Source of the DNA: Bacteroidales bacterium
GTDB lineage: Bacteria > Bacteroidota > Bacteroidia > Bacteroidales > WCHB1-69
Length of the DNA: 64,000 bases
Direction: 5' to 3'
NCBI GenBank assembly: GCA_017650305.1
Contig: JAGCFD010000035.1
Location: forward strand, 92,205 to 156,204
Part shown: piece by piece, positions 5,811-43,200 of the stretch
How positions within the stretch are numbered: position 1 is the stretch's first letter
Layout of the letters: each line of letters begins with the position of its first letter
Program-made: the position numbers and the translations under genes
Notes under the pieces: model-generated
Told to the model about the DNA's origin: nothing
What the model saw: only the letters and a program-made list of their open reading frames with translations
The model's database searches: none

Positions 5811-6833
5811 TTATGAGACGAAGACCACTTCGTACCAGAGGTATCCACTTACGATAACTTCCTTGTAGTAAACATTATCCACTTTGTAGTAGAGGTTGCC
5901 GTCCAGGACAATTTCCTCGTAAGTGCTGGGGAGTTCTGCCACGCGGGCTCCGATAGGAGGTGCTACAACTTCGTAATCAACCTTGTTGGAGTGACGTCTG
6001 TAGAAGGTTCCGTCGTCGTAATAGTAGCTTACATTGTTATAGACTATGATGATGGGTCTCCAGGTGTTGAATATGCTGTAGGCGATCACGGCTCCGAGCG
6101 GCGGGCGGCAGATGATGTAGCGGCCATTGATGTAGCGGCAGAAGACGCTGTTGTAGAAGTAGTAGGGCACACCATGATAGTAAACCGGACGGATGCGCGG
6201 AGGAATGTACATGTAGTGTCCGAAGTTGTGGTAGTTAGGGTGCATGTAGGGATGATATTTAGGCGCATTCGGGTTGTTGTGATTCGGAGCGGGTGCCGGT
6301 TGCGGCTGCGGATGACCTTGCTCGTTGTAACCTCTGGGATTGCTGGTGTGAGCGGTGGAGTTGGACTCCCTGGCTGATGTCGCGTTGGCGGCCGGAGTGC
6401 CCGTAGTGGTACGGGAAGTCGAGGTAGTTGTGGAAGTCGTCACTTGTCTCGCAGAAGCATTGGTGGCAGGCTTTGCTGTGGAAGTGGAGGTGGCAGGTCT
6501 TGCCGTGGTGGAAGAAGCAGGTCTAGCTGTGCTGGAAGAAGCAGGTCTTGCCGTGCTGGTAGTAGTTCTGGAAGAGGAGTTGGCCGGAACCGTGGTAGGC
6601 CTTGTATTGGTAGTGTTGGTGATAGTCTGAGCTCTTTGATAACTGCTGTTGGCCTTGTTCAGCTGTACATCGCCTTTCTTTACCTGACGAGCAGCTTGGC
6701 TCGACGCGCTGGATGTGGTTTGTGTCCGACTACTTGAAGTAGTTTGCCGTGCAGCGGGATTCTGACCCATAACCTCTGTTGTGGCCAAACCTACCATGCA
6801 GAGTACGCACAACATTGCAATTAACTTTTTCAT
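5811..6833 (-). CDS. Secreted low-complexity protein: Thr/Ser/Ala/Arg/Pro repeats, a His/Tyr/Pro block and a Tyr-rich C-terminal domain (function unknown)
   Basis: 340 aa with an ATG start and signal peptide MKKLIAMLCVLCMVGLATTEVMG. It contains (S/T)TARPAS-type repeats, then ...HPQPQPAPAPNHNNPNAPKYHPYMHPNYHNFGHYMY..., then ...YYYDDGTFYRR...YEVVAPPIGARVAELP...GNLYYKVDNVYYKEV.... Confidence 0.75.
   Translation of the reverse strand: MKKLIAMLCVLCMVGLATTEVMGQNPAARQTTSSSRTQTTSSASSQAARQVKKGDVQLNKANSSYQRAQTITNTTNTRPTTVPANSSSRTTTSTARPASSSTARPASSTTARPATSTSTAKPATNASARQVTTSTTTSTSRTTTGTPAANATSARESNSTAHTSNPRGYNEQGHPQPQPAPAPNHNNPNAPKYHPYMHPNYHNFGHYMYIPPRIRPVYYHGVPYYFYNSVFCRYINGRYIICRPPLGAVIAYSIFNTWRPIIIVYNNVSYYYDDGTFYRRHSNKVDYEVVAPPIGARVAELPSTYEEIVLDGNLYYKVDNVYYKEVIVSGYLWYEVVFVS
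6463..6566 (-). repeat. Degenerate 24-27 bp tandem coding repeat (about 4 units) encoding STARPAS(S)
   Basis: The plus strand shows ...ggaagaagcaggtctagctgtgct / ggaagaagcaggtcttgccgtgct... with flanking diverged units. The protein reads TSTARPASSSTARPASSTTARPATSTSTAKPAT. Confidence 0.7.
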
Positions 6834-25652: not shown

Positions 25653-26740
25653 TGGATAAAGAGTATAAGTCAGCCTTGGAGGAGCGCCCCGGAGTAGAAC
25701 AGCCTGTGTCTGTGAATCCCAATCTTGTACGCCACAAACGCCGCGAGTTGTCGTTGGACGAGTATGTGCAGGGGGTTCTTGAAGGAGATTGGGTCACGTT
25801 GAGTCGTGCTATCACGATGATAGAGAGTGCCAACCCGGATCATTTGGAGAAGGCCCAGGCAATCATTGAACGTTGTCTTCCTCATTCCGGTCATTCGTTG
25901 CGCATTGGCATCACAGGTGTCCCTGGCGTCGGGAAAAGCACATTTATCGAGGCTTTCGGCACGTTGCTGACCGAGCAAGGTCATAAGGTGGCGGTTTTGG
26001 CCATTGACCCCAGTAGTGAGCGTACTAAGGGAAGTATATTGGGCGATAAGACCCGTATGGAGTCTCTCTCTGTTAATCCGAAAGCTTTTATCCGTCCCTC
26101 GCCTTCCGGCAGTACGCTGGGTGGCGTGGCCCGCAAAACCCGGGAGTCTATTATACTGTGCGAGGCTGCTGGATATGATGTCATCATCGTAGAGACCGTC
26201 GGTGTCGGACAGTCTGAAACCGCCGTCAAGTCAATGGTCGATTTCTTCCTTCTCCTGATGCTGGCCGGTGCTGGTGATGAGCTGCAAGGCATCAAACGCG
26301 GTATCATGGAGATGGCCGATGCCCTGATCATCAACAAGGCTGATGGTGACAACAAACCGAAGGCTATCCAGGCTCAGTCCCAATACCGTGCCGCCTTGAA
26401 ACTCTTTCCCCAAACCGATAGCCAGTGGACTGTGCCAGTGGAGGTCTGTTCTGCCTTGGAGAACTTTGCTATTGACAAAGTCTGGGAGATGATCCGGAAG
26501 TATGAAAATCACACGAAAGCCAATGGCTACTTCGAGAAAAACCGTTCTGAACAGTTGGTGAATATTTTCCACAATTGGATTCAGTTTACTCTTCAGCATA
26601 ATTTTTACAATCAGCCTCAAACTGAAGAGGAGATAGAACACCTTCTGCCTATGATAAGGAACAAACAGATTTCCCCCTATATGGCAGCCACCCGATTGAT
26701 TGAAAAGATAGCCCATCTCACTGTCTCAAAGGAATATTAA
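25652..26740 (+). CDS. meaB: MeaB/ArgK-type G3E GTPase (methylmalonyl-CoA mutase-associated)
   Basis: 362 aa. P-loop GVPGVGKST, ...ETVGVGQSE..., ...INKADG.... TAATG overlap with the lon stop. Confidence 0.9.
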
Positions 26741-29528
26741 GAGTTGTGCTTCCCGACAGGTTCCCTGCCTGGTCCTTGCACCTTACATTTATTTTGCAGC
26801 TTCTGCTTTGCTTGGGTATCTGCAGCCTCGGCAAAGTGTGATTTGTGGTGGTTGTATGCCAGATGTCCCGCAAGCAGATGTTTTGATCCAGTGTGACGTG
26901 CAAAATGTACTCATATTCGGCTATTCCAGATTCTTCATCCATGGCGTTGTCCCATTGACCATAAATAGGGATCCCATCAAGTCGTATGGAGTTGTCTCTC
27001 GTCACAAAAGCTATAAGCCCGGTTGGCGGTGCTGGTGGGGAATAGTCAATCTTTATGTAGCTTTCAGCCAAGGTGGAAAAATTCAGTGCGTCATCCATAA
27101 CGATGCTCCTGACGAGCGTGTTTGATGTTCCATGAGAGGCCTGAATGCGCATGAGAGAAGTGTCGGCGTCGCCTACGGTTATGTGCGCTGAGTCGCTCCT
27201 GCCACTATATGAGCGTAGATTGTCTATCATGATCGGTTGAGAGCAGCAGAAGCCAATGGTCGTGTTCAGGTTTCCGTTTTCCAGAGGACCTGTTTCACAC
27301 TCGGCCAGCAATGTTTGGCCTCTAAACAGTGATATTCGGTGGTGTGTTGTATCCCAAAGTACCTTGTAGGAATAGGGGGTGTTCTCGGAGATGCAGACCT
27401 GGCCCGAACTTGCCAACAGAGTGGATGACCCATCTGCAATTCGGTAAATCGATATGCGACTAAGGCTTCTTTCGAAGCGGATTTCATAGCCCTGCCTGCA
27501 AATCAGAGCATTGTCTTTTTGTGAGTGGAAATAGAAGGAACAGTTCTCACCGCCTGTCATGGCTAAATCAAATTCAAATAGATAACAATCGGATTCTTCG
27601 TCATGGTGTCGTGCGTAGATTCTGCACGGGTTGTTCTGATTTGCCTGACATGTCAGTCTTTGGTTCTCGATGAGCCAGTTTCCGTCATGCTGCCAAATGG
27701 CAGTGTCCAGCTCGCTCTCGAAATTATCGTAGAGAAAACCATGTTTGGGATTTCCGAGCCAATTGTTGTCATGGCGTTCCACAATCTGCCACAGGCGATG
27801 TCGTATTGACTGGTCGTCGTTGTCTTCAAACCGTAATGTGAAATCACCTGTCATCCATGTAGAGTCCGTGTGCAGTATGGTCGTGGTGGGTGGGGTTGTG
27901 TCTGTGATAATTGGATGGGTGCCAGAAATATGGCAGACCCAATGAGCTTCCCATCCTGATTTTTGGGTTGCGCAATCAGAGCGAAACTCCACCAACAAAG
28001 CGTCGCCAGAGGAGGTGATGTGCCCAGGAGATGAAGTGTTCCACCTTCCGAGTAGCGGGGCGGATAAGTTGTTGCCGTCGTAAATCCATAAAAAGTCATA
28101 GTTCGTCTCTAAGTCGAAATGCTCAAAGTCCAAGGATATGCTATCTGCATTATGATGCCGGATTAGAAAAAGTTGTCTCTCGTCCTGATCATAGGGTCCG
28201 CTGGAGCCTCCAGAATCGTAATAAATGCCTGAGATAGAAGTGTCGATAGTGATGTTTGTCTCTGTGTTGAGCAGGTGATAATAGTGATTCCAATTCCAAT
28301 ATGGTCCAGGGTCAGTGTGTGATTGGTTCGGGTAGTGCTGATGCCCGCGAATTTGAGTGCAGGCAGTGGCTCCTCCAAGATTGTGAAGGCCGTTGTTTAG
28401 AGCGGTCCCATCGTCGAGTGTGTCACGGTAAAACGTGCGGTGCGGGTTGATGTTTGAATGCCTCTGGCAGATGTCCCGGACTAAGTTCGCGGATGATTGG
28501 TACATGTTCTCTGTAAAATAACTGGCGATGTTTCCGTATGCTTCGTGTTCCACTCCGATAGTGTAACTGTTGGCCGTCCCGACATGCCAAGCCTTGTCGC
28601 ACTCGCGGACCATTTGCGTCACTTGCCCGTCTGAAGAGCGGATGATGTAATGAGCGGACGCATTTGCACTGCAGTTCTGAAACCAGGCCAAAGTGCCAGA
28701 ATAGGTTCCTTGCGTGTAATGAATAGTTACCCCAGTGATTGTTGTTCCGTTTCTACCTTGTGTGTAGTTGCACGAGGCTGCTGCCAACCAGATGGCTCCA
28801 TCATAGTCGGGTGATGTCGCGATTCCCTGCTCGTCGCTTGGAAACCTAAGAGTCTTTCCTTCCAATTTGTACAATTCTTCTCCAAATACTTTCTCGAAAT
28901 CCACTTCCCAGCAATGCTTTGTGAAGACCGACATGCTGCTATCAGACAAGAATCTGTAGATCTCATATAAAGAGCTGCTAATAGGATAGTTGTCTGACCA
29001 CGATTTCGGATTAGGAGCGTAGGGCAATTCTGAGAGCTCTATAAAAATCTCTTTGTAATCTTCTATGTTGTCTGAGAAACACCGGTGCATTTGTTGCAAT
29101 GCCGCAAAGGCTTCTGCATAGGCAAAAATGGCATTTCGAGGACTCTCAAGAATCTCTTCTTTGGAGAAGGACGACAAAGTTTCAACATACTGTAGGTTTT
29201 CTCGGAAAACGCCTTTCCCGTCTGCGGTCAACCCCATTACGGTGTATGTTCTGGGTATGGTATGCTCATCGCTATCTTCAAATAAGATCTCTTTTGATGA
29301 GAATCTTCGGTACTGATACGAAATGGCTTCCAAAGTTCCTCTTGGCACCGTTGGATACTCTTTATAAGCATCTTCAAAATCATTTGAGATTTTGTTGAAA
29401 TCTTCTTGTAAATATGCGATGAGATCCTTTCCTTCCAGAGATTGTTGCGCAGTCGCAGCCACGCTAACGATAATACTTAATCCGATGAGAAGAGTCTTGA
29501 GTGATGTTTGAGTAAGTGAAGTTGTCAT
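26718..29528 (-). CDS. Large secreted N-acetylmuramoyl-L-alanine amidase (Amidase_2/PGRP type) fused to a CUB-like domain and further beta-rich modules
   Basis: 936 aa with a signal peptide. Amidase_2 block at aa ~262-415 (...[28 protein letters not shown]...IGVEHE...[19 protein letters not shown]...). CUB-like domain at aa ~432-531. The C-terminal half resembles a LamG/concanavalin-type jelly-roll plus an Ig/FN3-like end (low confidence). No T9SS CTD was seen. Confidence 0.8.
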
Positions 29529-30408: not shown

Positions 30409-31680
30409 TCAGGTTTTTTGTTCCTGCTTTTTGGCGGCGGGGAAAAGCACATTGTTGAGTATCAGTCGATAACCTGCAGAGTTCGGGAATAAATCCAGAT
30501 TTGTAGGAGGGTCGTTGATGAGGTGCTGGTAATCTTCTGGGTCGTGCCCGGAGTAGAAGGTCCAGGTGCCTTGTCCGAATTCTCCGTGGATGTATCGTGC
30601 TTCGTTAAATATCTGGGTTTCACCCATGATAGTCACAGTGGGTTTTATCAAATCTTTACGGAAGGCTGTTGTCTGGCCCATGAAACCCGGGATGACGTTC
30701 ATGTGATTTTGGCACAGCATGGTCGGAACCGGATCCCATTTGGCTGAGAACTCAAAGAGGGTGAAGTAGTCGTTGGATTTGTTTGTCAGATGGGTCGTGG
30801 GGTCCACATCGATGTCGGAGACCTCATATTCGTATGGGTTGACGACTATATGGAAGTCGGTGAAGGCAAAGCAGTTGTCGTAGTTGAGTTTGTCTTGAGC
30901 CTGAGGGTCCATCGGGTCGCCATCGAACATGACGTCACAGATGTCCACACCTTCGGCGGCGAGGGCGATGTCATAGCTGTCGGGTCCCGAGCACATAGCG
31001 AAGAGGTAGCCGCCGCCCGCCACGAAATCGCGGATTCCTTTGGCTACTGCCAGTTTCATTTGCGATACTTTGGCAAAGCCCAATTGAGCTGCCCGACTCT
31101 CATTTTCTGCCACATCTTCTATGTACCATTGGGCATTGCGATAATGCGCCCAGAATTTCCCATATTGTCCTGTAAAGTCCTCGTGATGAAGGTGAAGCCA
31201 ATCATATTTGGGCAACTCTCCATGGATGACCTCTTCATCATAGATGACAGTGTAGGGAATTTCTGCGTAGGTCAGTACTAAGGTCACGGCATCATCCCAA
31301 GGAAGTTTATTCTTTGGCGAATAGACCGCTATTTTAGGTTCCTTGGTCAGTCGAATTTCATTCATGTTATTTTCCACAGCGGCAATTTCGTTCAGAATCT
31401 GTTGGGCGGCAAGGTCGGCGATTACCTGATAAGAGACACCGCGTACCACACACTCGTTTTCCACGTCACTGTTATAGGAGCACATGAAGCTCCCTCCCCG
31501 GTAGTTTAACAGCCAGCTCATATCAATTTGATGAGCCACTGCATAGTATGCGATGCCGTATGCCTTCAGGTGATTGCTTTGCTCCATGTCCATGGGGATG
31601 AAGAGGTATGAGGCCTGTGCGCAAAAGAGGCTTTGTATCAAGATAATGACTAAAACTATATTCTTTTTGAAGTTCATCAT
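30409..31680 (-). CDS. Secreted hypothetical protein, gene 4 of a four-gene envelope operon (possible class-I glutamine-amidotransferase/ThuA-like fold)
   Basis: 423 aa with an ATG start and signal peptide MMNFKKNIVLVIILIQSLFCAQA. ...FVAGGGYLFAMCSGPDSYDIA... resembles a nucleophile-elbow motif. I cannot assign a family with confidence. Confidence 0.6.
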   Translation of the reverse strand: MMNFKKNIVLVIILIQSLFCAQASYLFIPMDMEQSNHLKAYGIAYYAVAHQIDMSWLLNYRGGSFMCSYNSDVENECVVRGVSYQVIADLAAQQILNEIAAVENNMNEIRLTKEPKIAVYSPKNKLPWDDAVTLVLTYAEIPYTVIYDEEVIHGELPKYDWLHLHHEDFTGQYGKFWAHYRNAQWYIEDVAENESRAAQLGFAKVSQMKLAVAKGIRDFVAGGGYLFAMCSGPDSYDIALAAEGVDICDVMFDGDPMDPQAQDKLNYDNCFAFTDFHIVVNPYEYEVSDIDVDPTTHLTNKSNDYFTLFEFSAKWDPVPTMLCQNHMNVIPGFMGQTTAFRKDLIKPTVTIMGETQIFNEARYIHGEFGQGTWTFYSGHDPEDYQHLINDPPTNLDLFPNSAGYRLILNNVLFPAAKKQEQKT

Positions 31681-31682
31681 TT

Positions 31683-32474
31683 TTATCTTCTGATTGAAAG
31701 TTTGTCAATTGATCCGTGTGAATCCAATAAATACCAATTACTCAAAGCTTTGGAGAAGGCGACGAGGCCATTGTGCCCGAAAATCATATTGGGAGACCAA
31801 AGTGTATTCAAGTTGTTGCTATAGATATTGTGATCTTTTAAAAAGTAAAGTATGTTGTTTTGAAGTTGCAGATATTGAATGCCTTGGACAGGAATCCATT
31901 TCTTAAAAGAGGCGAAGCGATCGTAAAGGGCGATGCCGGCAGCCGAATCCGACAGGAGCAGCTGCTCAAAGTTGTGATCAGCCACGATATGTTGAGGTTG
32001 GAACTCTGTGTCGAATTGGCAGTTTGTGGAAGTAGCCTTATTTAGATCCAGATCGATTAAAATAAGCTGCTGATTGGTTTTGTCGTAACAAGCTATTCTG
32101 TTGATGCCGAACATGCAGACCATGACAGGGTTCATAATTCCCAGTTCGAATAACTTAATTGGGTTTCCGATGGGGGCTAATTTATTGTTCAGCAGTAGGA
32201 TGCTGTTGGAATCTTCGTAATAGACCATGATTTTGGTCGGGATCGAGGCATCCACTTTGGAGATATATCCCATAGATGGATTGCTATAGTGATAGAGTAG
32301 ATTCCCTTCAGATGAGTATTTGTCAAGCCGGTCGCTTGTCCAACCGTAGATGTTCTCTTGAATGTCGGTAGTGAACAGGTCGTATTTCTGCGAAATAAAA
32401 GAAGGTCGCCCTTGTGCTAGCGAGCCAAGAGCGACTATGGTAAAAGTTAATACGCAGAGGATACAGCGCCGCAT
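31683..32474 (-). CDS. Secreted hypothetical protein, gene 3 of the operon (repetitive beta-strand pattern, possible small beta-propeller)
   Basis: 263 aa with signal peptide MRRCILCVLTFTIVALGSLAQG. The start lies 4 nt after the barrel gene stop. The stop lies 2 nt before the next start. Confidence 0.6.
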   Translation of the reverse strand: MRRCILCVLTFTIVALGSLAQGRPSFISQKYDLFTTDIQENIYGWTSDRLDKYSSEGNLLYHYSNPSMGYISKVDASIPTKIMVYYEDSNSILLLNNKLAPIGNPIKLFELGIMNPVMVCMFGINRIACYDKTNQQLILIDLDLNKATSTNCQFDTEFQPQHIVADHNFEQLLLSDSAAGIALYDRFASFKKWIPVQGIQYLQLQNNILYFLKDHNIYSNNLNTLWSPNMIFGHNGLVAFSKALSNWYLLDSHGSIDKLSIRR

Positions 32475-32478
32475 CGGA

Positions 32479-33918
32479 TTAGAATTTGAAGCCGATAGTG
32501 GCGAGGATTCTGTGATAGGTGCTATTCACGCGGGCGGGATCCACATAATAGGCATTGTAGAGCCAGATGTCATCCTTCGAAATGCCTAAGACATAAGCCA
32601 TGTCGAAGAAGATTCTTTTGGCGCGGATGCCAAAGCCGGCGGATGCATAGTGTGTGCTGCCAATCTTTTTGTCGTCGGCAAGTTTGTAGGGAGACATTTT
32701 ATAGTTGTAGCCGGCGCGAAGATAAAGCATTTGAGTCAGGGAAACTTCACCGCCGATACGGAAGGAATGTCCTATGCCATATTTAGAAACAATATTGTCA
32801 TTTTCTGTGGCAAAGCTGTAATCATCAGCAGAAAGTTTTGCCAGAGAGTAGTCGGTGAGCTCGTATTCTGCGGAGACGAAAGCTCTTTTGTTGATGATGA
32901 AGGCGGCACTGAAGTTGGCTTTTAGCGGAGTGGTCAATGCGAAGTGGTAGAGGTTGCTGTACTCTGAGAACTTGTTGACGTTGTTGATTGAGTCAGAGGA
33001 GAATGAACGATAGTAAGAGTCTTTGATTTTCCAGAAGAAGGAAGGAGTTTGGAAGCTAATGCCAAAGCGGAAAAAATCAACGGGTTGATAGATCAAACCT
33101 AATCTGAAGTTGATACCGGCTCCGGTGTTGTGTTGTTTGGTTACCACTGTATAATCGGTGAAGCCTGCCGCAGCCTCTCCGCTTGCGAGAGACTCGTTCA
33201 GTATAGTGTTTTGGGTGATATCCAACACGGGAATGCCAATGCCGGCACCGATGAAGAGTTGGTCGTTGTAGTTGCCACCGAAGTTGATGTCGATTTCGTC
33301 AAGAGAACCGGAGGTCTTCAAAGAGGCGTTTTGTGCCACGTCTTGATCATGGAAGCGCCCCCAATATCTACCGGTGTTGCCAGGAACATCGTCCAAGATC
33401 CAGGTGTCATAGGCCAGCTGGGCGTCCAGTCCAAGCGAAGCCGAGTTGTTGGCGGCATCCAGTAATGGGTCGGAGAAAGACGACGGGGCAATGCCTTCCA
33501 CACCAAAGGAGTTGTTGAAATCTTTCAGTCTGTTATAGCCGAATCCGAAGTGCCAGAACCGCCAGTTGCTATTCTCCCGGTTGATTTTGGAACTGAGAAC
33601 CAGACCCACCTGGGGAACGGCATATTTCATCTTCTTGCTGCTGCGGTTGTTGCCGTAGTAGGTGACATCATTTTGTAAAATGGAAAGAGACATGGGGGTA
33701 AATGAAACCTCGGATTTTTTGTAGAGGCCAATGGCTGCGGGGTTGTTTGTCAGGGCAGAGAAGTCTCCGCCGACAGCACCGAAGGCGCGACCGGCTCCCA
33801 TGTAGCGGGCGGTGCCGACATAGTCATTCTGTGAAAAAAGAAAGGCTTCATAATCATTTTGGCCCATCATGGCGCTAAAAAAGCAAAGACTCAAGGCGAA
33901 AACAAGAATTCTTTTCAT
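32479..33918 (-). CDS. Outer-membrane beta-barrel protein of the FadL/PorV-like type, gene 2 of the operon
   Basis: 479 aa with a signal peptide. The N-terminal ...GTARYMGAGRAFGAVGGDFSALTNNPAAIGLY... resembles the plug/hatch motif of FadL-, PorV- and PorQ-like barrels. It has an alternating amphipathic strand pattern and the C-terminal beta-signal ...ILATIGFKF. Confidence 0.7.
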   Translation of the reverse strand: MKRILVFALSLCFFSAMMGQNDYEAFLFSQNDYVGTARYMGAGRAFGAVGGDFSALTNNPAAIGLYKKSEVSFTPMSLSILQNDVTYYGNNRSSKKMKYAVPQVGLVLSSKINRENSNWRFWHFGFGYNRLKDFNNSFGVEGIAPSSFSDPLLDAANNSASLGLDAQLAYDTWILDDVPGNTGRYWGRFHDQDVAQNASLKTSGSLDEIDINFGGNYNDQLFIGAGIGIPVLDITQNTILNESLASGEAAAGFTDYTVVTKQHNTGAGINFRLGLIYQPVDFFRFGISFQTPSFFWKIKDSYYRSFSSDSINNVNKFSEYSNLYHFALTTPLKANFSAAFIINKRAFVSAEYELTDYSLAKLSADDYSFATENDNIVSKYGIGHSFRIGGEVSLTQMLYLRAGYNYKMSPYKLADDKKIGSTHYASAGFGIRAKRIFFDMAYVLGISKDDIWLYNAYYVDPARVNSTYHRILATIGFKF

Positions 33919-33968: not shown

Positions 33969-35651
33969 TTATCTGTGGCCGCCTCCACTGTGAGAGGAGG
34001 AACTGCTGCTGTGAGAAGAGCTGCTGTGAGAAGATCCGCTATAGCTGCTTCTTGAGCTTGAGGAGGATCCGCTGTAACTGCTTCTGGAGGAAGAACTGCT
34101 GGGTGAATAGCTGCTGCGAGAGCTGGAGGAAGAACTACTCGGCGTATAGCTATTGCGCGAGCTGGAAGAAGAACTGTTATAGCTGCCTCTTGAGGATGAC
34201 GAGCTGCTTGGCGTATAGCTGCTGCGAGAGCTCGAGGAAGAATTGTTGTAACTATTTCTTGAAGATGACGAGCTGCCAGACGAGTAGTTGCTGTTGGAGT
34301 TGGATGAGCTGCTTGGAGCGTAACCGCTTCTGTAGTTGGAAGATGAACTGCTATTGCTGGTCGGCGTTGGTCTGGATGTTGAAGTTCTGGTACTTCCATC
34401 AGACGATCTGATAATAGTAGTCGTTGCCGGTCTGCTGGTGCTCGTGGAAGCTGGTCTGCTTGTAGATTGCGGGGCAGGTGTTGAGGTTCTGGACGGAGTG
34501 GTGGTAGTAGTGGGAGTGGTTGTCCTGGCCGGAGTGGTAGTTGTCGTGCTAGTTCTTGACGGGGTCGTTGATGTTGGAGTCGTTGTTCTGGACGTAGTAG
34601 AGGTAGTAGTGGTTGTTCTGGCCGGAGTGGTGGTAGTTGTGGTCGTCCTTGAAGGAGTGATCGCAGGAGTGCTGGTGGTACGTGCGGGAACAGAGGGGGT
34701 TACGTCTGTTCTGGCAGGGGTGGCGCTGTGAGTACTGGTGGTGCCAGCGTCAGTGCGTGTCGTTGCGGAAGATCCACTTGCACTGTATGATGCGGCCATC
34801 GTCTGATATTGTTGGTTGAACGAAGCTGGTGAACTAACCGTAGAGTAGTGGTTGTTGTTGTCGTTGTTGATATAGTTGGATGTTAGTAAGTTATGATCCA
34901 GATCCTTTTCGCGGTTGCGACCATTGCCTACGGACGGTCCGATGCTTTCGCGGTGACCATAGTGGAAGGTGTTGTTCTGATCGTGGTTGTTGTGATACCA
35001 GTTGCTTGCCCAGTGGCCTCCCGAATGGTTCCAGTAGTCGTAGGGTCCGAAGTGGCCATGATGATGGTGCCACGGGTGGAAATGATGGTAGTGGAATGGG
35101 TCATAGTAGCCCCAGCCCCAGCCATAATTGAAGCCCCAGTAGTTGTAGCCATAGTAGTATGGACGCACATAATAGCTTGGCCACCACCAATTGTAGCCTA
35201 AATAGATGCTGTATCCCCAGTTGTAAGGGTTGTAATCATACCAATAAGTGTTGGTAAACCAAGGGTCGTAATACCCCCACCCACAGTACAGGTTTGTATG
35301 GAATCTGCGGAGACGTGAGGTGTAATAATAGTCGTAATAATCATCGTCAGAATAAGAACTGGTGAAATTATAATTTTTGGTTTCCGCAACGTAATTGGTG
35401 ATGACCGGCTCGCTTTGGCCCGGGTAGAAGGTCTGTGTTCTCAGCAAGTTCCCGTCTTCATCGTATTCGTAAACGATGGAGTCGGGCTGCAGCTCCGTGG
35501 TTTTTGCGGTGGTCTGAGACACGGTTGCAGCCTTGTATTGGGTGTCTCCTGAAGAGGAGTAGACATCATCGTAGAAGGCATAATTGCCTGTCATACAAGA
35601 TGAAAGGAGTAATGCCATAAAGGTTGCTGCGATAAGAAATTGTTTTTTCAT
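33969..35651 (-). CDS. Lipoprotein of extreme composition (Tyr/Trp/His block, Thr/Pro/Arg block, Ser-rich SSSSSRxSY repeats), gene 1 of the operon
   Basis: 560 aa with an ATG start. Signal MKKQFLIAATFMALLLSSC (Cys19 as the lipidation candidate). See findings for block coordinates. Confidence 0.75.
   Translation of the reverse strand: MKKQFLIAATFMALLLSSCMTGNYAFYDDVYSSSGDTQYKAATVSQTTAKTTELQPDSIVYEYDEDGNLLRTQTFYPGQSEPVITNYVAETKNYNFTSSYSDDDYYDYYYTSRLRRFHTNLYCGWGYYDPWFTNTYWYDYNPYNWGYSIYLGYNWWWPSYYVRPYYYGYNYWGFNYGWGWGYYDPFHYHHFHPWHHHHGHFGPYDYWNHSGGHWASNWYHNNHDQNNTFHYGHRESIGPSVGNGRNREKDLDHNLLTSNYINNDNNNHYSTVSSPASFNQQYQTMAASYSASGSSATTRTDAGTTSTHSATPARTDVTPSVPARTTSTPAITPSRTTTTTTTPARTTTTTSTTSRTTTPTSTTPSRTSTTTTTPARTTTPTTTTTPSRTSTPAPQSTSRPASTSTSRPATTTIIRSSDGSTRTSTSRPTPTSNSSSSSNYRSGYAPSSSSNSNSNYSSGSSSSSRNSYNNSSSSSRSSYTPSSSSSSRGSYNSSSSSSRNSYTPSSSSSSSRSSYSPSSSSSRSSYSGSSSSSRSSYSGSSHSSSSHSSSSSSHSGGGHR
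33972..34355 (-). repeat. Degenerate coding tandem repeat encoding about ten (S)5-7-R-(N/S/G)-S-Y units
   Basis: aa 433-560 read ...SSSSSRNSYNNSSSSSRSSYTPSSSSSSRGSYNSSSSSSRNSYTPSSSSSSSRSSYSPSSSSSRSSYSGSSSSSRSSYSGSSHSSSSHSSSSSSHSGGGHR. All six Ser codon types are mixed, so the DNA repeat is imperfect. Confidence 0.75.
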
Positions 35652-35679
35652 AAATACCTCCGTATATTTTGAAATTTAG

Positions 35680-35687
35680 TATTTTTG
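35680..35687 (+). promoter_or_regulatory. -7 promoter box (TATTTTTG), candidate proS promoter
   Basis: TATTTTTG lies 105 nt upstream of the proS ATG. Confidence 0.4.
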
Positions 35688-35707
35688 CAATCAGTCTAAA
35701 TAGACGG

Positions 35708-35715
35708 CAAAGATA
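35708..35715 (-). promoter_or_regulatory. -7 promoter box (TATCTTTG) for the four-gene envelope operon
   Basis: Reverse strand reads TATCTTTG, 57 nt upstream of the ATG at 35651. Confidence 0.4.
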
Positions 35716-35791
35716 CTAAAAAGTTAATTCTTTGTAGGAAAAAAATCTGTACATAAAATTAAAAAACCTTAATAGATAAAATAGAAAAAGT

Positions 35792-37267
35792 ATGGCAAAA
35801 AATTCAACGACTCGTGAAGAGAACTATTCCCAGTGGTATAATGACATTGTGAAGAATGCTGACTTGGCAGAAAATTCCTCCGTGAGAGGATGTATGGTTA
35901 TCAAACCGTATGGATATGCAATTTGGGAGAAGGTGCAGTCTGCACTCGACAAGATGTTTAAAGATACTGGGCACGTGAATGCCTATTTTCCTTTGTTCAT
36001 TCCAAAGTCTTTCTTCAGCCGTGAGGCCAGCCACGTGGAGGGATTTGCGAAGGAGTGTGCCGTGGTGACGCATTACCGATTAAAAAATGCAGAAGATGGC
36101 AGTGGCGTGGTGGTGGATCCTGAGGCAAAATTGGAAGAAGAACTGATTGTCCGCCCCACTTCTGAAACTATCATCTGGAATACTTATAAAAACTGGATCC
36201 AATCGTATCGTGACCTGCCGATTCTGTGTAATCAGTGGGCTAATGTGGTTCGTTGGGAGATGCGCACGAGACTTTTCCTTCGTACGGCCGAGTTCTTGTG
36301 GCAAGAGGGTCATACCGCGCACGCCACTCGCGAAGAGGCAGTGGAAGAAACCGAGCGCATGTTGCATGTGTATGCTGATTTTGTAGAGAATTTTATGGCC
36401 ATACCGGTTGTGAAAGGTGTGAAATCCCCGAATGAGCGTTTCGCTGGTGCGTTGGATACTTACTGTATTGAAGCCTTGATGCAGGATGGCAAGGCACTTC
36501 AAGCTGGCACATCCCACTTCCTGGGCCAGAACTTTGCAAAAGCGTTTGATGTCAAGTTCCTCAACAAGGATAATCAACTTGAGTATGTCTGGGCAACTTC
36601 GTGGGGCGTTTCCACTCGCTTGATCGGAGCCTTGATCATGACCCATTCCGATGATAATGGATTGGTGCTTCCTCCTAAACTTGCTCCTACACAAGTTGTT
36701 ATCATTCCTATCTACAAAAATGAAGAGCAACGTCAAGCTATTGCCGAAAAAGCAGCAGGTTTGGCCGCAGAACTGAAGGCGCTGAATATTACCGTTAAGT
36801 TTGATGATGATGACACCAAACGTTCTGGCTGGAAATTCAACGAATACGAGCAGAAGGGTGTGCCCGTTCGTATCGCCATCGGACCTCGAGACCTGGAAAA
36901 CAATCAGGCTGAAGTTGCCCGTCGTGATACACTGACTAAAGAGTCGGTCTCTTTTGATGGCATCGCCGCTTATATTCAAAAATTATTGGACGAAATACAA
37001 AATAATCTCTTCCAAAAAGCGTTATCCTTCCGTGACACACACACTTATAAGGCTGATACGTGGGAGGAATTTATAGATCTGCTGGATAACAAGCCTGGCT
37101 TTGTGTACGCACACTGGGATGGAACTCAGGAAACAGAGGAGAAAATCAAAGAATTGTCCAAAGCCACGATCCGTTGCATCCCCTTCAACAATCCTAAAGA
37201 GGAGGGTAAGTGTATTCTGACAGGCAAGCCCTCTTCCCAAAGAGTACTTTTCGCCCGTTCCTATTAA
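35792..37267 (+). CDS. proS: Proline--tRNA ligase (archaeal/eukaryote-like type)
   Basis: 491 aa. ...[37 protein letters not shown]..., ...RPTSETII..., ...[16 protein letters not shown].... Confidence 0.95.
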
Positions 37268-40271: not shown

Positions 40272-43200
40272 ATGAAAAAATTATTATCAATTTGCTTTTT
40301 AAGCATTCTGCTGGCGTTTCTGAGCTTCACAGCTCAAGCGCAGACAACACAATCATGCTGCTTCTGGCTGGAGAATCTCCAACCACAGACATTGCATGAT
40401 ATTGCCAATGTCCCTGGCGGTGGCGCTGCTCATCTGCCTGGCACAGGTGGCGATGTTGTGTTGAACAACACCATGAATCCGGTGTTGCATGGTATTGACA
40501 CTGTTACCGGTCAATGTCAACAGACGGACTATTACAGGATTCGCTTTGCGAACACTTGCAATCTTCCTGCTGGCACGAAAGTGTCTATCGAATGGAAGTT
40601 GTATCGTGACGGCGAGCTTGTAAACGGCAATCTTTCCGATTATGCCGATTTCCGCATTTACACTCGGTACCAGAGACTGCACAACAACCCCGATCCCCTG
40701 ACTGCTGGTCAAGCAGGCTGTGCAACTATTCCATGGCTTGGTGGTCGTGTGGCTGAACATTTGGGCGGCTGTTTCGAGACGAACAATCATGTTACTGGTC
40801 TTGATTATTCAGTTGCTGGTTATCCTGGTTCTTTCCAGGTAGAACCGCTGCCTTATGATTTTGCGAATACCTCTTTTGGAGCAAATGGTTCCATCTTTAT
40901 TGCCAATGAAATGGCTTTGGATTACTTCAATCTGAACTTCTTTGAATCCACGGATCATGTAATTGTTATTTGCTGGAAACAAGTTGGTAACTATTCTTTG
41001 GTTGTTGGTCTGCGCGAGCGTTTGTTCGGTACAGACTGGCCGACTCTTTATTGGACTGATGAGAATGACAACCCGATGGGTTCCATTGGTGGTCACGAGA
41101 GCCACTGTGGCGCACTCCTTGCTCAAGACTCTATCCACTATCTTGTAGAGACTACTTATGACAAAGCTGTTTGTGACGGTCAAACTTGGGACTTCGGTAG
41201 CCCTACCGCCACCTTCTCTGTTGAGAATCCTTACCTTGTTATCTTTGGTGACTCCGTTTGCGGTCATTTCAGAGTTGACAGCTTAGTACACCTCAACTTC
41301 TACACTCGTATCAATCCTGATATCGTAGCTAATGACTTTGACATTTGCGTCGGCCTTCCGTTGCCTGCTTCTGAAGTTGCTTCCCATACACCTGCTGTGA
41401 ACACCGATGCTCCTGGCATTATCGACTATGCTATTTGGTGGTCTCAAGATGGCAACACCTGGGATACCATCACTCCGAGCTACAATGCTGTTCAAGTTGG
41501 TACCTATACTTGGTATGTGAAACAAATCAACCACTACGATGCTGTTACCCCGGACGATTTCTATTGCGAGGGTGCTATCGATACTTTGACCATCACCGTG
41601 AAACCGCTTTACGCTCCTGTAATTGCTACTCACGAGTCTGAATGGTGTTATAACGATCTGCCTGCTGCTCTCAACCTCAAGGCTTCCTATGATCCTAACG
41701 AGGAATGTGCCACTGGCATCGTTTGGTCTTACAATGGCGTTTCTCTCGACACTGTAGCAAGTGGTGAGAATATCTCTTTGATTTTGGCTGAGTATTTCCC
41801 GACCAATATCAATAAGACTGTCAATTTGATCGCTTACACCACCAACGGTTATGCCAACTCTCCTGAAGTTACCGTTACCTTGACGGTTCATGCTTCTCCC
41901 GTACCGACTGGCACCGTTGCTGATGCTACCTATACTTTGTGCCCGAGCACTACGCAAAACTTGACCACCGATTTCACAGATTCCAACGTTGGTCAAACGC
42001 ACAGCACCGCTACTTATGTTTGGACTTTGAATGGTCAAGTTATTCCTGGTGCTAATGCTTCCAGTTATATGGGAACTACCCCGGCTACTTGTACCGGTTC
42101 TAACGTTTATGTTGTTACCGCTACTTTCACCAGCGATGCTGGTTGTGCCGAGACTATCTCCCGCAAGTACACGTTGACCGTCCAAAGCGAAGGTGTTATC
42201 ACCGTTACGCCGAAGACCACGACAAAGACTGAGTTCACCATTTCCGGTTGTGACACCACCGTTGCTGAGTTTGTTAACGGTCGTCGTACTCTTGCCGATT
42301 TGATGAGCTTGCTCAATGTTACCTATCCTTGCAGCGCTCCTGTAAGTGTGACCTATAACGCTACTATCGTCTCTTCTTCACTTTGCCAGACTGTGGTTAC
42401 CAGAAGCTACATCCTCAACGATGCTTGCGACAACCACTCTAACGCTTTCGTGGAGACCTGGACTATCAATAATGACTATAGACCTGTTATCTCCGGTACT
42501 TCTTCTATGAATTTCGTCCGCATCCAAGATTGTAAGTACGAAGTTCCTGCTCAACAAGTACTGGTTGATTCCTTCTTGTTGCACAACACAGTTACATTCC
42601 AATGCAACGGTGGTTCTGTAACCTCCTACGCTTTCTATTTGGATGCTGCGGCTACTGTATCCGCTCCTGGTCACCTGATCTTTGAGAATCCGACTACCAT
42701 GGTTCATAATATCTATGCAGTTGTGACTGATGCTTGTGGTAACAAGTCTGTTCCTACGCTTGTTTTCACCATCCAACGTCCTGCTCCTATGACTATCGAC
42801 GGTGGTATTTTGGCTCTTCCGCCGGATATCTGTTTGCATGACACTGTTTTCTTGTCCTTCGACGTTGCTCACATCCTCAATGCTACTCCGCTTGTGAACG
42901 CCAATAATGAAGAGTACTATATCCTTGAGTGGACTGCCAATCCTAACGATGGTAGTATCATTTTCCATACCAGTCCTAATGCTCTCGGTGTTCCTGCATC
43001 TCCTAATACTGACTATGTATATACTATGACCGCTACTGATTTCTACGGTTGTAAAGCTTCTATCAGCGCTAACCCTGTTCATGTACACGGTCTTCCTACA
43101 GTAGAAGTTGAAGAGATTATCCTCAACGGTTCTACCTTCCCGCTTTGCCCGAACTATGGTAACCTTACCATTCACTCCATCACTACTCCTGGTAACGGTG

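What the first reader, a model, noticed from the sequence alone, without database searches (positions are those of the whole stretch)
34947..35354. Aromatic/histidine block of exceptional composition in the operon lipoprotein
Residues about 100-235 read ...DDDYYDYYYTSRLRRFHTNLYCGWGYYDPWFTNTYWYDYNPYNWGYSIYLGYNWWWPSYYVRPYYYGYNYWGFNYGWGWGYYDPFHYHHFHPWHHHHGHFGPYDYWNHSGGHWASNWYHNNHDQNNTFHYGH.... By my count this is about 30 Tyr, 14 Trp and 16 His in about 135 residues. Trp near 10% is very rare in any protein. The composition (Tyr/Trp/Gly/Asn/His with a HYHHFHPWHHHHGH cluster) recalls metal-coordinating or coacervating structural proteins and amyloid-prone segments rather than an enzyme. It may mediate metal binding, self-assembly or adhesion at the cell surface.
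Basis: partly seen in the sequence, partly recalled or inferred. Interest (0 to 1): 0.6.

Follow-up and report, generated by a model that had tools for sequence, protein, structure and literature searches.

The report
Ultra-aromatic domain of uncharacterized envelope protein
The tyrosine/tryptophan/histidine-rich block is real and is the hallmark of a large, unnamed family of Bacteroidota cell-envelope proteins that usually sit beside a dedicated FadL-type outer-membrane channel gene, but the histidine cluster is only a local variation and the function is still unknown.

Summary
Observation confirmed. Residues 100-235 of the 560-aa lipoprotein (33969..35651, minus strand) hold 31 Tyr, 14 Trp and 16 His in 136 residues. 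That is twice the Y+W+H density of any other protein in the window.

It is not drift or an artefact. The block occurs in at least 357 species genomes and 614 protein clusters, all annotated "hypothetical", with no Pfam, NCBIfam or PDB match. dN/dS is 0.004 in its first 65 residues.

The block has three parts:
- a nearly invariant aromatic core (residues 100-164);
- a segment conserved in composition but variable in sequence, rich in Gly, Tyr, Asn, Trp and His (165-216);
- a conserved YYHN..D..YYGHR motif (217-235).

The HYHHFHPWHHHHGH cluster lies in the variable segment. His counts range from 1 to 18 across orthologues, and these His positions mostly align with Tyr, Gly or gaps. Metal binding therefore cannot be the family's core role.

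The whole architecture is conserved: signal peptide or lipobox, acidic linker, aromatic block, Arg-rich Ser/Thr tail, C-terminal RR. The gene lies divergent from proS in 74 of 82 loci and directly upstream of a FadL-fold barrel in 62 of 82.

AlphaFold2 finds no autonomous fold. My best reading, inferred at about 0.4, is a membrane-interface or barrel-docking sticky module of a new two-gene outer-membrane unit. Condensate or amyloid assembly and clade-specific metal or pH roles remain open.

The parts
33969..35651 (-). Gene for the 560-aa aromatic lipoprotein. It is the founding window member of an unnamed Bacteroidota family.
   Evidence: ORF. Homologues. dN/dS. No Pfam, NCBIfam or PDB family.
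35595..35651 (-). Signal peptide with lipobox (LSSC, Cys19).
   Evidence: Read from the sequence. A lipobox-like Cys is found in most of 78 orthologues. Some distant members (P0027-29, P0042, P0044) instead have an SPase-I type ASA/VAQ site.
35559..35582 (-). Conserved Y-x-x-Y-D-D-(I/V)-Y motif near the mature N-terminus (residues 24-31).
   Evidence: Y31 is invariant and the DD is conserved in at least 70% of sequences in alignment A1. The motif is present 5-13 residues after the Cys, or directly after the signal cleavage site, in distant members.
35355..35558 (-). Acidic polar linker (residues 32-99, net charge -7). It contains a small three-stranded beta meander (residues 57-87) that is specific to the rumen clade.
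   Evidence: Charge. The linker is net negative in 68 of 69 orthologues, median -11. It is the only AlphaFold2-confident part, with pLDDT 68-89.
35160..35354 (-). Conserved aromatic core (residues 100-164): DDYYDYxYTSRLRRFH...GWGYYDPxFTNxYWYDYNPxxWGxSIYLGYNWWWPSYYxRP.
   Evidence: Twenty invariant columns in A1 fall here. Column entropy is near zero across 282 unique sequences. dN/dS is 0.004. dN is 0.11-0.16 where the tail has 0.7-0.8.
35004..35159 (-). Variable aromatic/Gly/Asn/His low-complexity segment (residues 165-216). It includes the His cluster HYHHFHPWHHHHGH (residues 187-200, 35052..35093).
   Evidence: The composition is conserved but the sequence and length are not. His-cluster positions align with Tyr, Gly, Asp or gaps in relatives. 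The segment is constrained within the close clade, dN/dS 0.019.
34947..35003 (-). Conserved closing motif (W/Y)YHNxxDxNxx(F/Y)(H/Y)YG(H/P)R (residues 217-235).
   Evidence: R234 is invariant, and N221, D224 and G232 are at least 90% conserved. H220 and H233 are conserved in 18 of 18 relatives compared.
34806..34823 (-). SFNQ(R/Q)Y motif (residues 277-282). It falls in a short helix in the AlphaFold2 model, which is low-confidence there.
   Evidence: Present in the consensus of A1 and A2. The model has a helix at mature residues 259-269, pLDDT about 36-41.
33972..34781 (-). Basic Ser/Thr/Pro/Arg-rich low-complexity tail, probably disordered (residues 291-560): 168 Ser+Thr, 23 Arg, 0 Lys, net +20. 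It ends in GGGHR.
   Evidence: Composition. Degenerate DNA tandem repeats with periods 30, 39 and 69. The tail is net positive in 69 of 69 orthologues, and the C-terminus ends in [RK][RK] in 51 of 69 and in R or K in 65 of 69.
35708..35715 (-). TATCTTTG, a match to the Bacteroidota -7 promoter consensus TAnnTTTG. It lies 56 nt upstream of the ATG in the 140-bp gap shared with divergent proS.
   Evidence: Pattern located. The consensus is from my own knowledge of Bacteroides promoters and was not tested here.
32479..33918 (-). Cognate FadL-family 14-stranded outer-membrane barrel (479 aa), 50 bp downstream of the lipoprotein gene.
   Evidence: Pfam Toluene_X at 52.4 bits against a 29.7 cut-off. 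AlphaFold2 pLDDT 87. Foldseek best matches are FadL, TodX and BamG. It lies immediately downstream of the family gene in 62 of 82 loci. N59-P60-A61 are invariant.
30409..32474 (-). Two further secreted proteins (263 aa and 423 aa) packed behind the barrel gene, with gaps of 4 and 2 bp. They are clade-specific additions to the cluster.
   Evidence: ORFs. No family hit. They are neighbours in only 15 of 82 and 9 of 82 loci respectively.
35792..37267 (+). proS (prolyl-tRNA synthetase), the conserved divergent neighbour.
   Evidence: Present divergently upstream in 74 of 82 loci, with Pfam tRNA-synt_2b/ProRS-C_1 in the related loci.

Best explanation
The block is the signature domain of a previously undescribed, phylum-wide family of Bacteroidota envelope proteins. 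It is not a one-off oddity.

**Architecture.** The protein is exported and in most members lipid-anchored. It has a fixed block design:
- an N-terminal (Y)DD(I/V)YY motif;
- an acidic linker;
- an aromatic module of about 120-160 residues;
- a long Arg-rich Ser/Thr/Asn/Pro tail;
- a C-terminal basic dipeptide.

**The aromatic module.** It consists of a sequence-invariant core of about 65 residues, a low-complexity stretch (Gly/Tyr/Asn/Trp, with or without His) whose composition but not sequence is kept, and a closing YYHN..D..YYG(H/P)R motif.

**Proposed mechanism (inferred, not shown).** The module does not fold on its own. It acts as a strongly interface-seeking, 'sticky' segment. It holds the protein at the periplasmic face of the outer membrane and docks it to the FadL-type barrel encoded next to it. 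This would form a two-component outer-membrane unit analogous to other Bacteroidota lipoprotein/FadL-paralogue pairs. The basic, presumably disordered tail would extend into the periplasm toward anionic partners.

**The His cluster.** The cluster seen in this window is a clade-specific elaboration of the Tyr/Gly spacer. His and Tyr codons differ by one transition. The elaboration is enriched in herbivore-gut lineages. There it may add pH or metal sensitivity, but it is not the family's core function.
For: **Shown.**
- The family is large and unannotated. There are 57 homologues at first pass, at least 357 species genomes and 614 50%-identity clusters at E<=1e-10. There are no Pfam, NCBIfam or PDB matches, and sources give only 'hypothetical' or evidently automatic names.
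- The core is extremely conserved.
- The aromatic composition is kept in all 78 orthologues: Y 23-47, W 4-20, and Y+W+F+H 35-53% of the block. His varies from 1 to 18.
- The charge-block design and the C-terminal basic end are conserved.
- Synteny with the FadL-fold barrel holds in 62 of 82 loci and with proS in 74 of 82, across Bacteroidales, Lentimicrobiaceae, Flavobacteriales and Sphingobacteriia, and in cultured Hymenobacter.
- The partner is a confident FadL fold (pLDDT 87).
- AlphaFold2 gives pLDDT 25-35 over the block, that is, no autonomous fold.
- The Wimley-White interfacial free-energy sum is -37 kcal/mol for residues 100-216. This is more favourable than any other 117-residue stretch of long ORFs in the window.

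**Precedent from the literature.** FadL-like barrels in this phylum act as docking partners of lipoproteins. Examples are BamG-BamH (PMC12611786 and PMC12578637) and PorV as a FadL homologue that binds substrates (PMC12578637). Bacteroidota BamA carries a flexible Tyr/Gly/Asn-rich loop of unknown function (PMC12578637).
Against: - No direct evidence exists for contact between the aromatic module and the barrel.
- A mirror-tree test gave no co-evolution beyond phylogeny: partial r(core, barrel | ProS) = -0.01, p = 0.54.
- About 20% of loci have the family gene beside proS without the barrel as neighbour.
- Some members lack the lipid-anchor Cys.
- The barrel model has N-terminal helices where FadL has its plug domain, and an invariant NPA motif. 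It may therefore be an ordinary transporter that needs no partner.
- The low AlphaFold2 confidence may only reflect the shallow 17-sequence alignment that the tool rules allowed.
- Covariation within the core gave no clear contact pattern.
Confidence: 0.4

Rival explanations
1. Self-assembling material. The aromatic block and the Tyr/Arg/Ser tail drive homotypic assembly, either a condensate (coacervate) or a cross-beta (amyloid-like) polymer. The result would be a periplasmic or cell-surface matrix. The neighbouring barrel would serve as secretion or nucleation partner, as in the curli and Fap systems.
For: - The sticker-spacer grammar fits. The block is 35-53% aromatic with Gly, Asn and Ser spacers. 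The tail has 23 Arg, 0 Lys, 10 Tyr and 168 Ser+Thr.
- An acidic linker opposite a basic tail in all orthologues would allow head-to-tail electrostatic pairing.
- The variable segment in distant members is a GY(N/D)GYY-type imperfect repeat resembling prion-like domains.
- There is no monomeric fold.
- Both faces of the putative strand SIYLGYNWW are conserved.
Against: - Most members are lipid-anchored rather than free subunits.
- There are no repeated amyloid units and no DNA or protein tandem repeats within the conserved core.
- FadL-fold barrels are plugged 14-stranded channels, and none is known to secrete proteins. The model here has N-terminal helices where FadL has its plug.
- Near-invariance of a 65-residue sequence is unusual for regions whose function is purely compositional.
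Confidence: 0.2
2. Metal binding. The His cluster, together with Tyr, Asp and Asn, coordinates Zn, Ni, Cu or Co. The lipoprotein would then be a periplasmic metal buffer, store or chaperone.
For: - There are 16 His in 136 residues, including HYHHFHPWHHHHGH.
- Another clade carries an even longer run, GHHHHHHHHHGHHHGHHHH.
- The cluster is under purifying selection within the close clade, dN/dS 0.019.
- His content is higher in herbivore-gut lineages: median 12.5 against 3, Mann-Whitney p = 5e-8, not corrected for phylogeny.
Against: - His content ranges from 1 to 18. Many orthologues, including most environmental ones, have at most 3 His in the block while keeping everything else.
- The cluster positions align with Tyr, Gly, Asp or gaps in relatives. 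Only H118, H220 and H233 are conserved.
- No metal transporter, regulator or metallochaperone gene is a conserved neighbour.
- No match to any known metal-binding family.
Confidence: 0.15
3. Hydrophobic-ligand hand-off. The FadL-type barrel imports long-chain fatty acids or aromatic (plant phenolic) compounds. The aromatic module, anchored beneath it, would act as an acceptor or sponge that takes the ligand from the outer membrane and passes it across the periplasm.
For: - The partner keeps the FadL fold and an invariant N-P-A motif at the position of the FadL NPA motif, for which P34A, N33A and delta-NPA mutant structures exist.
- Its best structural matches include the fatty-acid and mono-aromatic hydrocarbon channels FadL, TodX, TbuX and CymD.
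- The block has an extreme aromatic and interfacial character.
- The family is abundant in rumen and gut lineages, where such compounds are plentiful.
Against: - No fatty-acid or aromatic catabolic or activation genes are conserved neighbours.
- Known FadL systems need no such partner.
- Nothing in the block resembles a defined binding pocket.
- NPA retention was not compared with the non-transporting paralogues BamG and PorV, so it may not discriminate between the two.
Confidence: 0.12
4. Glycan or peptidoglycan binding. Tyr/Trp platforms stack on sugar rings, so the module would tether the outer membrane to peptidoglycan or to a capsular or exopolysaccharide layer.
For: - Aromatic-rich composition with conserved Asn, Asp, Thr and Ser.
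- An envelope location is implied by the signal peptide.
- The basic tail could bind anionic polymers.
Against: - No similarity to any carbohydrate-binding or peptidoglycan-binding family.
- No predicted fold.
- No glycan-processing genes are conserved nearby.
- The genome already encodes a TPR-PD40-OmpA peptidoglycan-binding protein 2.4 kb away.
Confidence: 0.08
5. Not a functional feature. The block would be compositional drift, a mis-called frame or an assembly artefact.
For: Half of the block's codons are NAY (69 of 136), so it looks like a biased sequence. Shadow ORFs exist on the opposite strand.
Against: - dN/dS is 0.004-0.02 with saturated synonymous sites.
- The same block is present in hundreds of independent assemblies and in a finished genome of a cultured species.
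- There are invariant residues across orders.
Confidence: 0.01

Closest known systems
Bacteroidota lipoprotein / FadL-paralogue outer-membrane pairs (BamH-BamG of the BAM complex; PorV of the type IX secretion system as a FadL homologue that binds substrates)
   Same: A lipoprotein gene is paired with a 14-stranded FadL-fold barrel in the same phylum. In BamG-BamH the barrel is a docking platform for the lipoprotein's N-terminal region (PMC12611786, PMC12578637). The barrel here matches BamG structures at TM 0.62-0.65, normalised to target length.
   Different: The barrel scores far below the NCBIfam cut-offs for BamG (47.5 against 250), PorV (16.5 against 250) and PorQ (30.2 against 220). It matches a T9SS complex chain, presumed to be PorV (8gl6_F), only at TM 0.34. 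The lipoprotein has no similarity to BamH. It lacks the surface-export signal that BamH-type surface lipoproteins carry. No physical interaction has been shown.
Tyr/Gly/Asn-rich extracellular loop EL3 of Bacteroidota BamA
   Same: Same phylum, same envelope compartment and the same Tyr/Gly/Asn compositional theme. The loop is flexible, with no cryo-EM density, and its function is unknown (PMC12578637).
   Different: EL3 is a 38-residue loop with 13 Tyr inside a barrel protein. The block here is 120-160 residues, also rich in Trp, contains a sequence-invariant 65-residue core and sits in a separate lipoprotein. No homology has been shown.
FadL/TodX family of hydrophobic-compound channels (partner gene only)
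   Same: Pfam Toluene_X hit above cut-off, a 14-stranded barrel with N-terminal helices where FadL has its plug, an invariant NPA motif, and best Foldseek hits to FadL, TodX, TbuX and CymD.
   Different: Only 10-16% identity. The protein is about 50-60 residues longer than FadL. It is in conserved linkage to an aromatic lipoprotein, which is not a feature of the characterised FadL systems I know of.
Eukaryotic prion-like / FUS-type low-complexity domains, and His/Gly/Tyr-rich coacervating structural proteins (squid-beak HBPs, Nereis jaw Nvjp-1)
   Same: Tyr (and Arg) stickers in Gly/Ser/Asn spacers. The His-rich variants could be pH-switchable. No stable monomeric fold. These resemblances come from my own knowledge of those proteins.
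   Different: No homology. This is a bacterial exported lipoprotein. It contains a strictly conserved 65-residue core and about 10% Trp, both atypical for those domains. Phase behaviour is untested.
Bacterial His-rich metal-binding proteins (e.g. Helicobacter Hpn/Hpn-like, His-rich loops of ZnuA-type proteins)
   Same: Runs of His interspersed with Gly in a small region.
   Different: The His runs are not conserved in the family. There is no homology, no metal-related neighbours, and the dominant residues are Tyr and Trp.

Membership tests
Bacterial lipoprotein (SPase II substrate) | N-terminal signal peptide ending in a lipobox [LVI][ASTVI][GAS]C | tested here: met
   MKKQFLIAATFMALLLSSC, with L-S-S-C at residues 16-19. 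A comparable Cys is found in most of 78 orthologues, but a minority have an SPase-I type site instead.
Bacteroidota surface-exposed lipoprotein (LES-bearing) | Two or more acidic residues within the six residues after the lipidated Cys | tested here: not met
   C-MTGNYA has no Asp or Glu. The conserved DD lies at +9/+10. The criterion is as quoted in PMC12578637. A non-canonical signal cannot be excluded.
FadL/Toluene_X outer-membrane transport protein (partner gene 32479..33918) | Pfam PF03349 match above the gathering score | tested here: met
   52.4 bits against a 29.7 cut-off, E = 3.8e-14.
FadL/Toluene_X outer-membrane transport protein (partner gene 32479..33918) | 14-stranded barrel with N-terminal plug domain; structural match to solved FadL/TodX | tested here: met
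   AlphaFold2 pLDDT 87.4. N-terminal helices at residues 22-65 are followed by barrel strands. Foldseek E = 1e-16, TM 0.56-0.65 to 3DWO, 1T16 and 3BS0. I did not count the strands or view the coordinates.
FadL/Toluene_X outer-membrane transport protein (partner gene 32479..33918) | Conserved NPA motif in the N-terminal plug domain | tested here: met
   N59-P60-A61 are invariant in 28 homologues. Correspondence to FadL N33-P34-A35 is inferred from the motif context, not from a structural alignment.
BamG (Bacteroidota BAM subunit) | NCBIfam NF053685 equivalog score of at least 250 | tested here: not met
   47.5 bits for the window protein and 46.6 for a Sphingobacteriia orthologue.
PorV / PorQ (T9SS FadL-like shuttle proteins) | NCBIfam PorV_fam at least 90, PorV at least 250 or PorQ at least 220; structural match to PorV | tested here: not met
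   35.2, 16.5 and 30.2 bits respectively. TM is 0.34 to a T9SS complex chain, presumed to be PorV (8gl6_F).
His-rich metal-binding protein | His cluster conserved among homologues as the functional site | tested here: not met
   His per block ranges from 1 to 18 across 78 orthologues. Cluster positions 187-200 are mostly Tyr, Gly, Asp or gaps in relatives. Actual metal binding cannot be tested with these tools.
Any curated protein family for the aromatic block (Pfam-A, NCBIfam, PDB sequences) | Significant profile match | tested here: not met
   No hits for the window protein, the isolated block or three distant orthologues at E up to 10. The PDB profile search returned only a chance hit at E = 0.35.
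Functional amyloid subunit (curli CsgA / Fap type) | Tandem imperfect repeat units forming the cross-beta core, with a dedicated secretion channel of the CsgG or FapF type | tested here: not met
   No tandem repeats in the conserved core. The neighbour is a FadL-fold barrel with N-terminal helices where FadL has its plug, not a CsgG or FapF type channel. Amyloid formation itself cannot be tested here.
Phase-separating sticker-spacer low-complexity domain | Aromatic and Arg stickers in polar spacers; demonstrated condensation | not testable with these tools
   The sequence grammar is present. Condensation requires experiment.

The most novel reading that the evidence does not exclude
This would be a new, phylum-wide outer-membrane module: a FadL-type barrel plus an exported protein whose working part is an ultra-aromatic sequence (about 45-50% Tyr/Trp/Phe/His) that does not fold alone. 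That sequence would act as an interfacial or condensate-forming 'aromatic phase' beneath or around the barrel. It would form a bacterial envelope micro-compartment that captures hydrophobic or aromatic molecules, or organises the outer-membrane/periplasm interface. In herbivore-gut lineages it would be tuned by Tyr-to-His replacement to respond to pH or metals. If so, it would be a bacterial envelope protein in which a sticker-spacer aromatic domain, rather than a folded domain, is the conserved functional unit.
Probability: 0.15. Interest if true: 0.85.

Novelty: new variant of a known kind. Interest (0 to 1): 0.58.

Why it matters
Bacteroidota dominate gut and rumen communities, and their outer membrane is built differently from the E. 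coli model. Two 2025 structures showed FadL paralogues acting as scaffolds for lipoproteins in an essential machine.

This family adds a second, widespread FadL-paralogue/lipoprotein pairing that carries no annotation at all. It spans at least 357 species and at least 614 protein clusters at 50% identity.

Its hallmark domain is among the most aromatic conserved sequences one is likely to meet. It is under very strong purifying selection, yet it has no predicted fold. That makes it a good test case for whether sticker-spacer or interfacial sequences can be the conserved functional unit of a bacterial envelope protein.

It may also bear on the unexplained Tyr/Gly/Asn-rich loop of Bacteroidota BamA.

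A cultured carrier with a finished genome (Hymenobacter cellulosilyticus) makes the question experimentally approachable.

Tried and rejected
1. **Curated libraries.** Pfam and NCBIfam scans of the protein, of the isolated block and of distant orthologues found nothing, even at E up to 10. PDB sequence and profile searches also found nothing.
2. **Structure of the block.** AlphaFold2 on mature residues 20-290 with a 17-sequence alignment gave pLDDT of about 30 over the block. I therefore ran no fold search on that model, because it would be meaningless.
3. **Mirror-tree test.** Partial Mantel test of the aromatic core against the barrel, controlling for ProS: partial r = -0.01, p = 0.54. This gives no support for specific co-evolution. 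The test is weak because the core hardly varies.
4. **Covariation.** APC-corrected mutual information on 282 unique core sequences gave no convincing contact ladder. Two weak pairs (43-54 and 46-51) hint at a hairpin around SIYLGY.
5. **Four-gene operon idea.** I rejected the idea that the whole four-gene cluster is the functional unit. The 263-aa and 423-aa genes accompany the pair only in the close rumen clade (15 of 82 and 9 of 82 loci).
6. **BamG or PorV identity for the barrel.** Rejected on NCBIfam cut-offs and structure.
7. **T9SS linkage.** One locus (L001) lies near porP-gldKLM, but this is not general.
8. **Literature.** Searches for a description of the family found only the BAM papers.
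9. **Names.** Cluster-member look-ups and a profile search aimed at cultured taxa returned 'hypothetical protein' plus a few evidently automatic labels: 'Vitellogenin II', 'RcnB' and 'YgcG'.
10. **AFDB fold search.** The AlphaFold-database search for the barrel was unavailable.


Full report
**1. The observation**

The finding's coordinates (34947..35354) lie inside a minus-strand ORF, 33969..35651, which encodes 560 residues. They correspond to residues 100-235. It contains 31 Tyr, 14 Trp, 16 His, 14 Gly and 13 Asn in 136 residues.

Against the other 33 likely genes of the window (Y 4.5%, W 1.2%, H 2.4%) these are 5-, 8.6- and 4.9-fold enrichments. Binomial tails are 6e-14, 1.5e-9 and 1.6e-7. 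The best 136-residue stretch of any other protein holds 31 Y+W+H, against 61 here.

The protein starts with a lipoprotein signal (…LLLSSC, Cys19).

**2. Is it real coding sequence?**

Yes. Compared with the closest genome hit, a water-buffalo rumen Bacteroidales MAG at 80% identity (L005), synonymous sites are saturated (dS 1.2-1.7). dN/dS is 0.004 for residues 100-164, 0.019 for 165-216, 0.06 for 217-290 and 0.13 for the tail.

The block is present in independent assemblies from many hosts. It is not built from DNA tandem repeats. Only the Ser/Thr tail shows degenerate repeats, with periods 30, 39 and 69. Artefact and drift are excluded.

**3. The family**

The N-terminal 289 residues retrieve 57 proteins. 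A profile search of a 50%-identity clustered library found 614 clusters at E<=1e-10 and 1041 at E<=1e-3.

The carriers are Bacteroidota. The closest are rumen and gut Bacteroidales. Others are Lentimicrobiaceae, Flavobacteriales and Sphingobacteriia. There is also a divergent member in the finished genome of cultured Hymenobacter cellulosilyticus. A few contigs carry non-Bacteroidota labels. These are probably mis-binned, because their proS is 73-88% identical to the window's.

No member has a Pfam domain, an NCBIfam hit, a solved relative or an informative name. Literature searches found no description.

**4. Anatomy of the block and the protein**

Alignment of 18 diverse members (A1) places 20 of the 23 invariant columns within residues 104-164. 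The consensus is DDYYDYxY(T/S)(S/A)R(L/I)RRF(H/Y)…GxGYYD(P/N)(Y/F)(Y/F)TNxYWY(D/N)Y(N/x)PxxWGxSIY(L/M)GYNWWxPS…P. Across 282 unique sequences (effective number 168), many of these columns have entropy near zero.

Residues 165-216 are different. Their length and sequence vary, but their composition (Gly, Tyr, Asn, Trp, Pro, with or without His) is kept.

A third piece, (W/Y)YHNxxDxNxx(Y/F)(Y/H)G(H/P)R (217-235), is conserved again, and an SFNQRY motif follows.

Over 78 orthologues the block has 23-47 Tyr, 4-20 Trp and 1-18 His. Y+W+F+H make up 35-53% of it.

The rest of the protein is equally stereotyped:
- A (Y)DD(I/V)YY motif lies a few residues after the anchor Cys. In the minority of members that have no Cys, it lies directly after an SPase-I site.
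- The linker is acidic. It is net negative in 68 of 69 orthologues, median -11.
- The tail is rich in Ser, Thr, Asn, Gln, Pro and Gly and is basic. It is net positive in 69 of 69, median +22, with Arg far exceeding Lys. The window protein has 23 Arg and 0 Lys.
- The C-terminus ends in [RK][RK] in 51 of 69 and in R or K in 65 of 69.

**5. The histidine cluster**

HYHHFHPWHHHHGH (residues 187-200) lies in the variable segment. In 18 relatives outside the closest clade, these positions are mostly Tyr, Gly, Asp or gaps. Only H118 (RRFH), H220 (YHN) and H233 (YGHR) are conserved.

Half of the block's codons are NAY (Tyr, His, Asn, Asp; 69 of 136). His and Tyr therefore interconvert by one transition.

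One other clade has a still longer run, HHHHHHHHHGHHHGHHHH, while many environmental members have at most 3 His in the block. His counts are higher in herbivore-gut lineages: median 12.5 against 3, Mann-Whitney p = 5e-8. This is confounded by phylogeny.

Within the window's own clade the cluster is constrained, with dN/dS 0.019. So it probably matters locally. It cannot be the reason the family exists.

**6. Genomic context**

Among 82 loci, the family gene is divergent from proS in 74. It is followed directly by a homologue of the window's 479-aa gene (32479..33918) in 62. This pairing holds across orders and in Hymenobacter.

The two further genes of the window's tight cluster (263 and 423 aa, with gaps of 4 and 2 bp) accompany it only in the close rumen clade, in 15 and 9 loci. 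About 20% of loci have the family gene beside proS without the barrel.

A TAnnTTTG match lies 56 nt upstream of the start codon. The consensus for that motif is from my own knowledge.

**7. The partner**

The 479-aa protein hits Pfam Toluene_X above threshold. It is modelled with high confidence, pLDDT 87.4, as a barrel preceded by N-terminal helices.

Its best structural matches are Pseudomonas and E. coli FadL, TodX, and the BamG subunits of the B. thetaiotaomicron, F. johnsoniae and P. gingivalis BAM complexes, at TM 0.56-0.65. A T9SS complex chain, presumed to be PorV, matches only at TM 0.34.

It fails the NCBIfam cut-offs for BamG, PorV and PorQ by wide margins. It is therefore a distinct FadL paralogue.

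N59-P60-A61 are invariant. They stand where FadL has its NPA motif, for which P34A, N33A and delta-NPA mutant structures exist (titles).

**8. Structure of the block**

AlphaFold2 with the 17-sequence alignment gave pLDDT 25-35 throughout the aromatic block. Only a small three-stranded sheet in the linker (residues 57-87, clade-specific) was confident. The shallow alignment is a caveat.

The block's summed Wimley-White interfacial free energy is -37 kcal/mol over 117 residues. This is more favourable than any equal-length stretch in the other long ORFs of the window, whose minimum is -28.8.

**9. Interpretation**

What is shown: this is a large, unannotated, strongly constrained family with a fixed architecture, and it is linked to a FadL-fold barrel.

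What is inferred: a sequence that is nearly invariant on both faces of its putative strands, yet has no autonomous fold, most plausibly folds or packs against something. The obvious candidates are the membrane interface and the barrel encoded next to it.

The phylum offers precedent. BamG is a FadL paralogue that docks the lipoprotein BamH through its N-terminal region. PorV is a FadL paralogue that binds cargo. BamA itself carries a flexible Tyr/Gly/Asn-rich loop of unknown function (PMC12611786, PMC12578637).

I therefore favour, at about 0.4, a docking or interfacial 'sticky' module in a two-component outer-membrane unit. In this reading the protein faces the periplasm, because no canonical surface-export signal follows the Cys, and the basic tail reaches toward anionic partners.

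Evidence against this reading:
- The mirror-tree test found no co-evolution beyond phylogeny.
- One-fifth of loci lack the barrel neighbour.
- Some members lack the lipid anchor.
- The barrel looks self-sufficient.

Rivals:
- **Homotypic condensate or cross-beta assembly (0.2).** The Tyr/Arg/Ser grammar and the acidic-head/basic-tail design fit. Lipid anchoring and the invariant core fit less well.
- **Metal binding as the primary role (0.15).** This is contradicted as a family function but remains open as a clade-specific add-on.
- **Acceptor for hydrophobic ligands delivered by the FadL channel (0.12).**
- **Glycan or peptidoglycan binding (0.08).**
- **Artefact or drift (0.01).** Refuted.

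**10.

The emphasis on the His cluster and on metal coordination is not supported at family level. Surface location is not supported by the lipoprotein sorting signal. Coacervation and amyloid formation remain untested possibilities.

**11. Novelty and score**

The aromatic domain belongs to no described family. The general kind, a Bacteroidota lipoprotein paired with a FadL paralogue, is known from BAM and the T9SS. I therefore rate it a new variant of a known kind.

Interest is 0.58. A specialist in Bacteroidota envelopes would find an unannotated, phylum-wide, extremely constrained ultra-aromatic domain with a dedicated FadL paralogue notable, and a cultured carrier makes it testable. Function is still unknown, and the headline feature (the His cluster) is lineage-specific.

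Noticed in passing
window 30409..31680 (-): The last gene of the cluster encodes a 423-aa secreted protein with no Pfam, NCBIfam or PDB match. It is nevertheless 95-97% identical in the closest MAGs and 83-87% in more distant rumen Bacteroidales, which makes it as conserved as ProS. It contains a FAMCSGPD motif. It is linked to the module only in this clade (9 of 82 loci).
   Followed up: partly
window 5811..6833 (-): A 340-aa DUF6515 protein has the second-highest Tyr+Trp+His density in the window. It carries a Thr/Ser/Ala/Arg/Pro-rich linker (…SSSRTTTSTARPASSSTARPASS…) much like the tail of the aromatic lipoprotein. Such Arg-punctuated Ser/Thr linkers may be a recurring envelope-protein feature in this organism.
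   Followed up: partly
window 40272..50456 (+): A giant 3394-aa protein has a C-terminal Por_Secre_tail sorting domain and an Ig-like CHU_C-associated domain. It is a type IX secretion cargo, so the organism has a T9SS.
   Followed up: partly
window 26718..29528 (-): A 936-aa secreted protein combines an N-acetylmuramoyl-L-alanine amidase domain with a CUB domain. CUB is an unusual partner in bacteria.
   Followed up: no
window 35652..37267 and 82 related loci: The divergent arrangement of proS with the aromatic-protein gene is conserved across orders of Bacteroidota (74 of 82 loci), including Hymenobacter. Such deep conservation of a divergent pair with a tRNA synthetase is unexplained.
   Followed up: partly
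L020, L082 (and protein P0366): Contigs carrying the family are labelled Oscillospiraceae, Candidatus Competibacteraceae and Candidatus Azotimanducaceae. The proS on L020 and L082 is 88% and 73% identical to the window's Bacteroidales proS, so those two are probably mis-binned Bacteroidota contigs.
   Followed up: partly
L083 6001..7400 and L084 6001..7931: In the finished Hymenobacter cellulosilyticus genome and in assembly OZ260106.1, the family gene is annotated as two or three consecutive ORFs (273+155 aa; 161+94+377 aa). This suggests frameshifts or assembly errors in the low-complexity region, or real pseudogenisation.
   Followed up: no
window 34001..36000: The plus-strand GC skew peaks here (0.27) in the composition profile. 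The block's codon usage may contribute: half of its codons are NAY, with many TGG and GGN codons, on the minus strand.
   Followed up: partly
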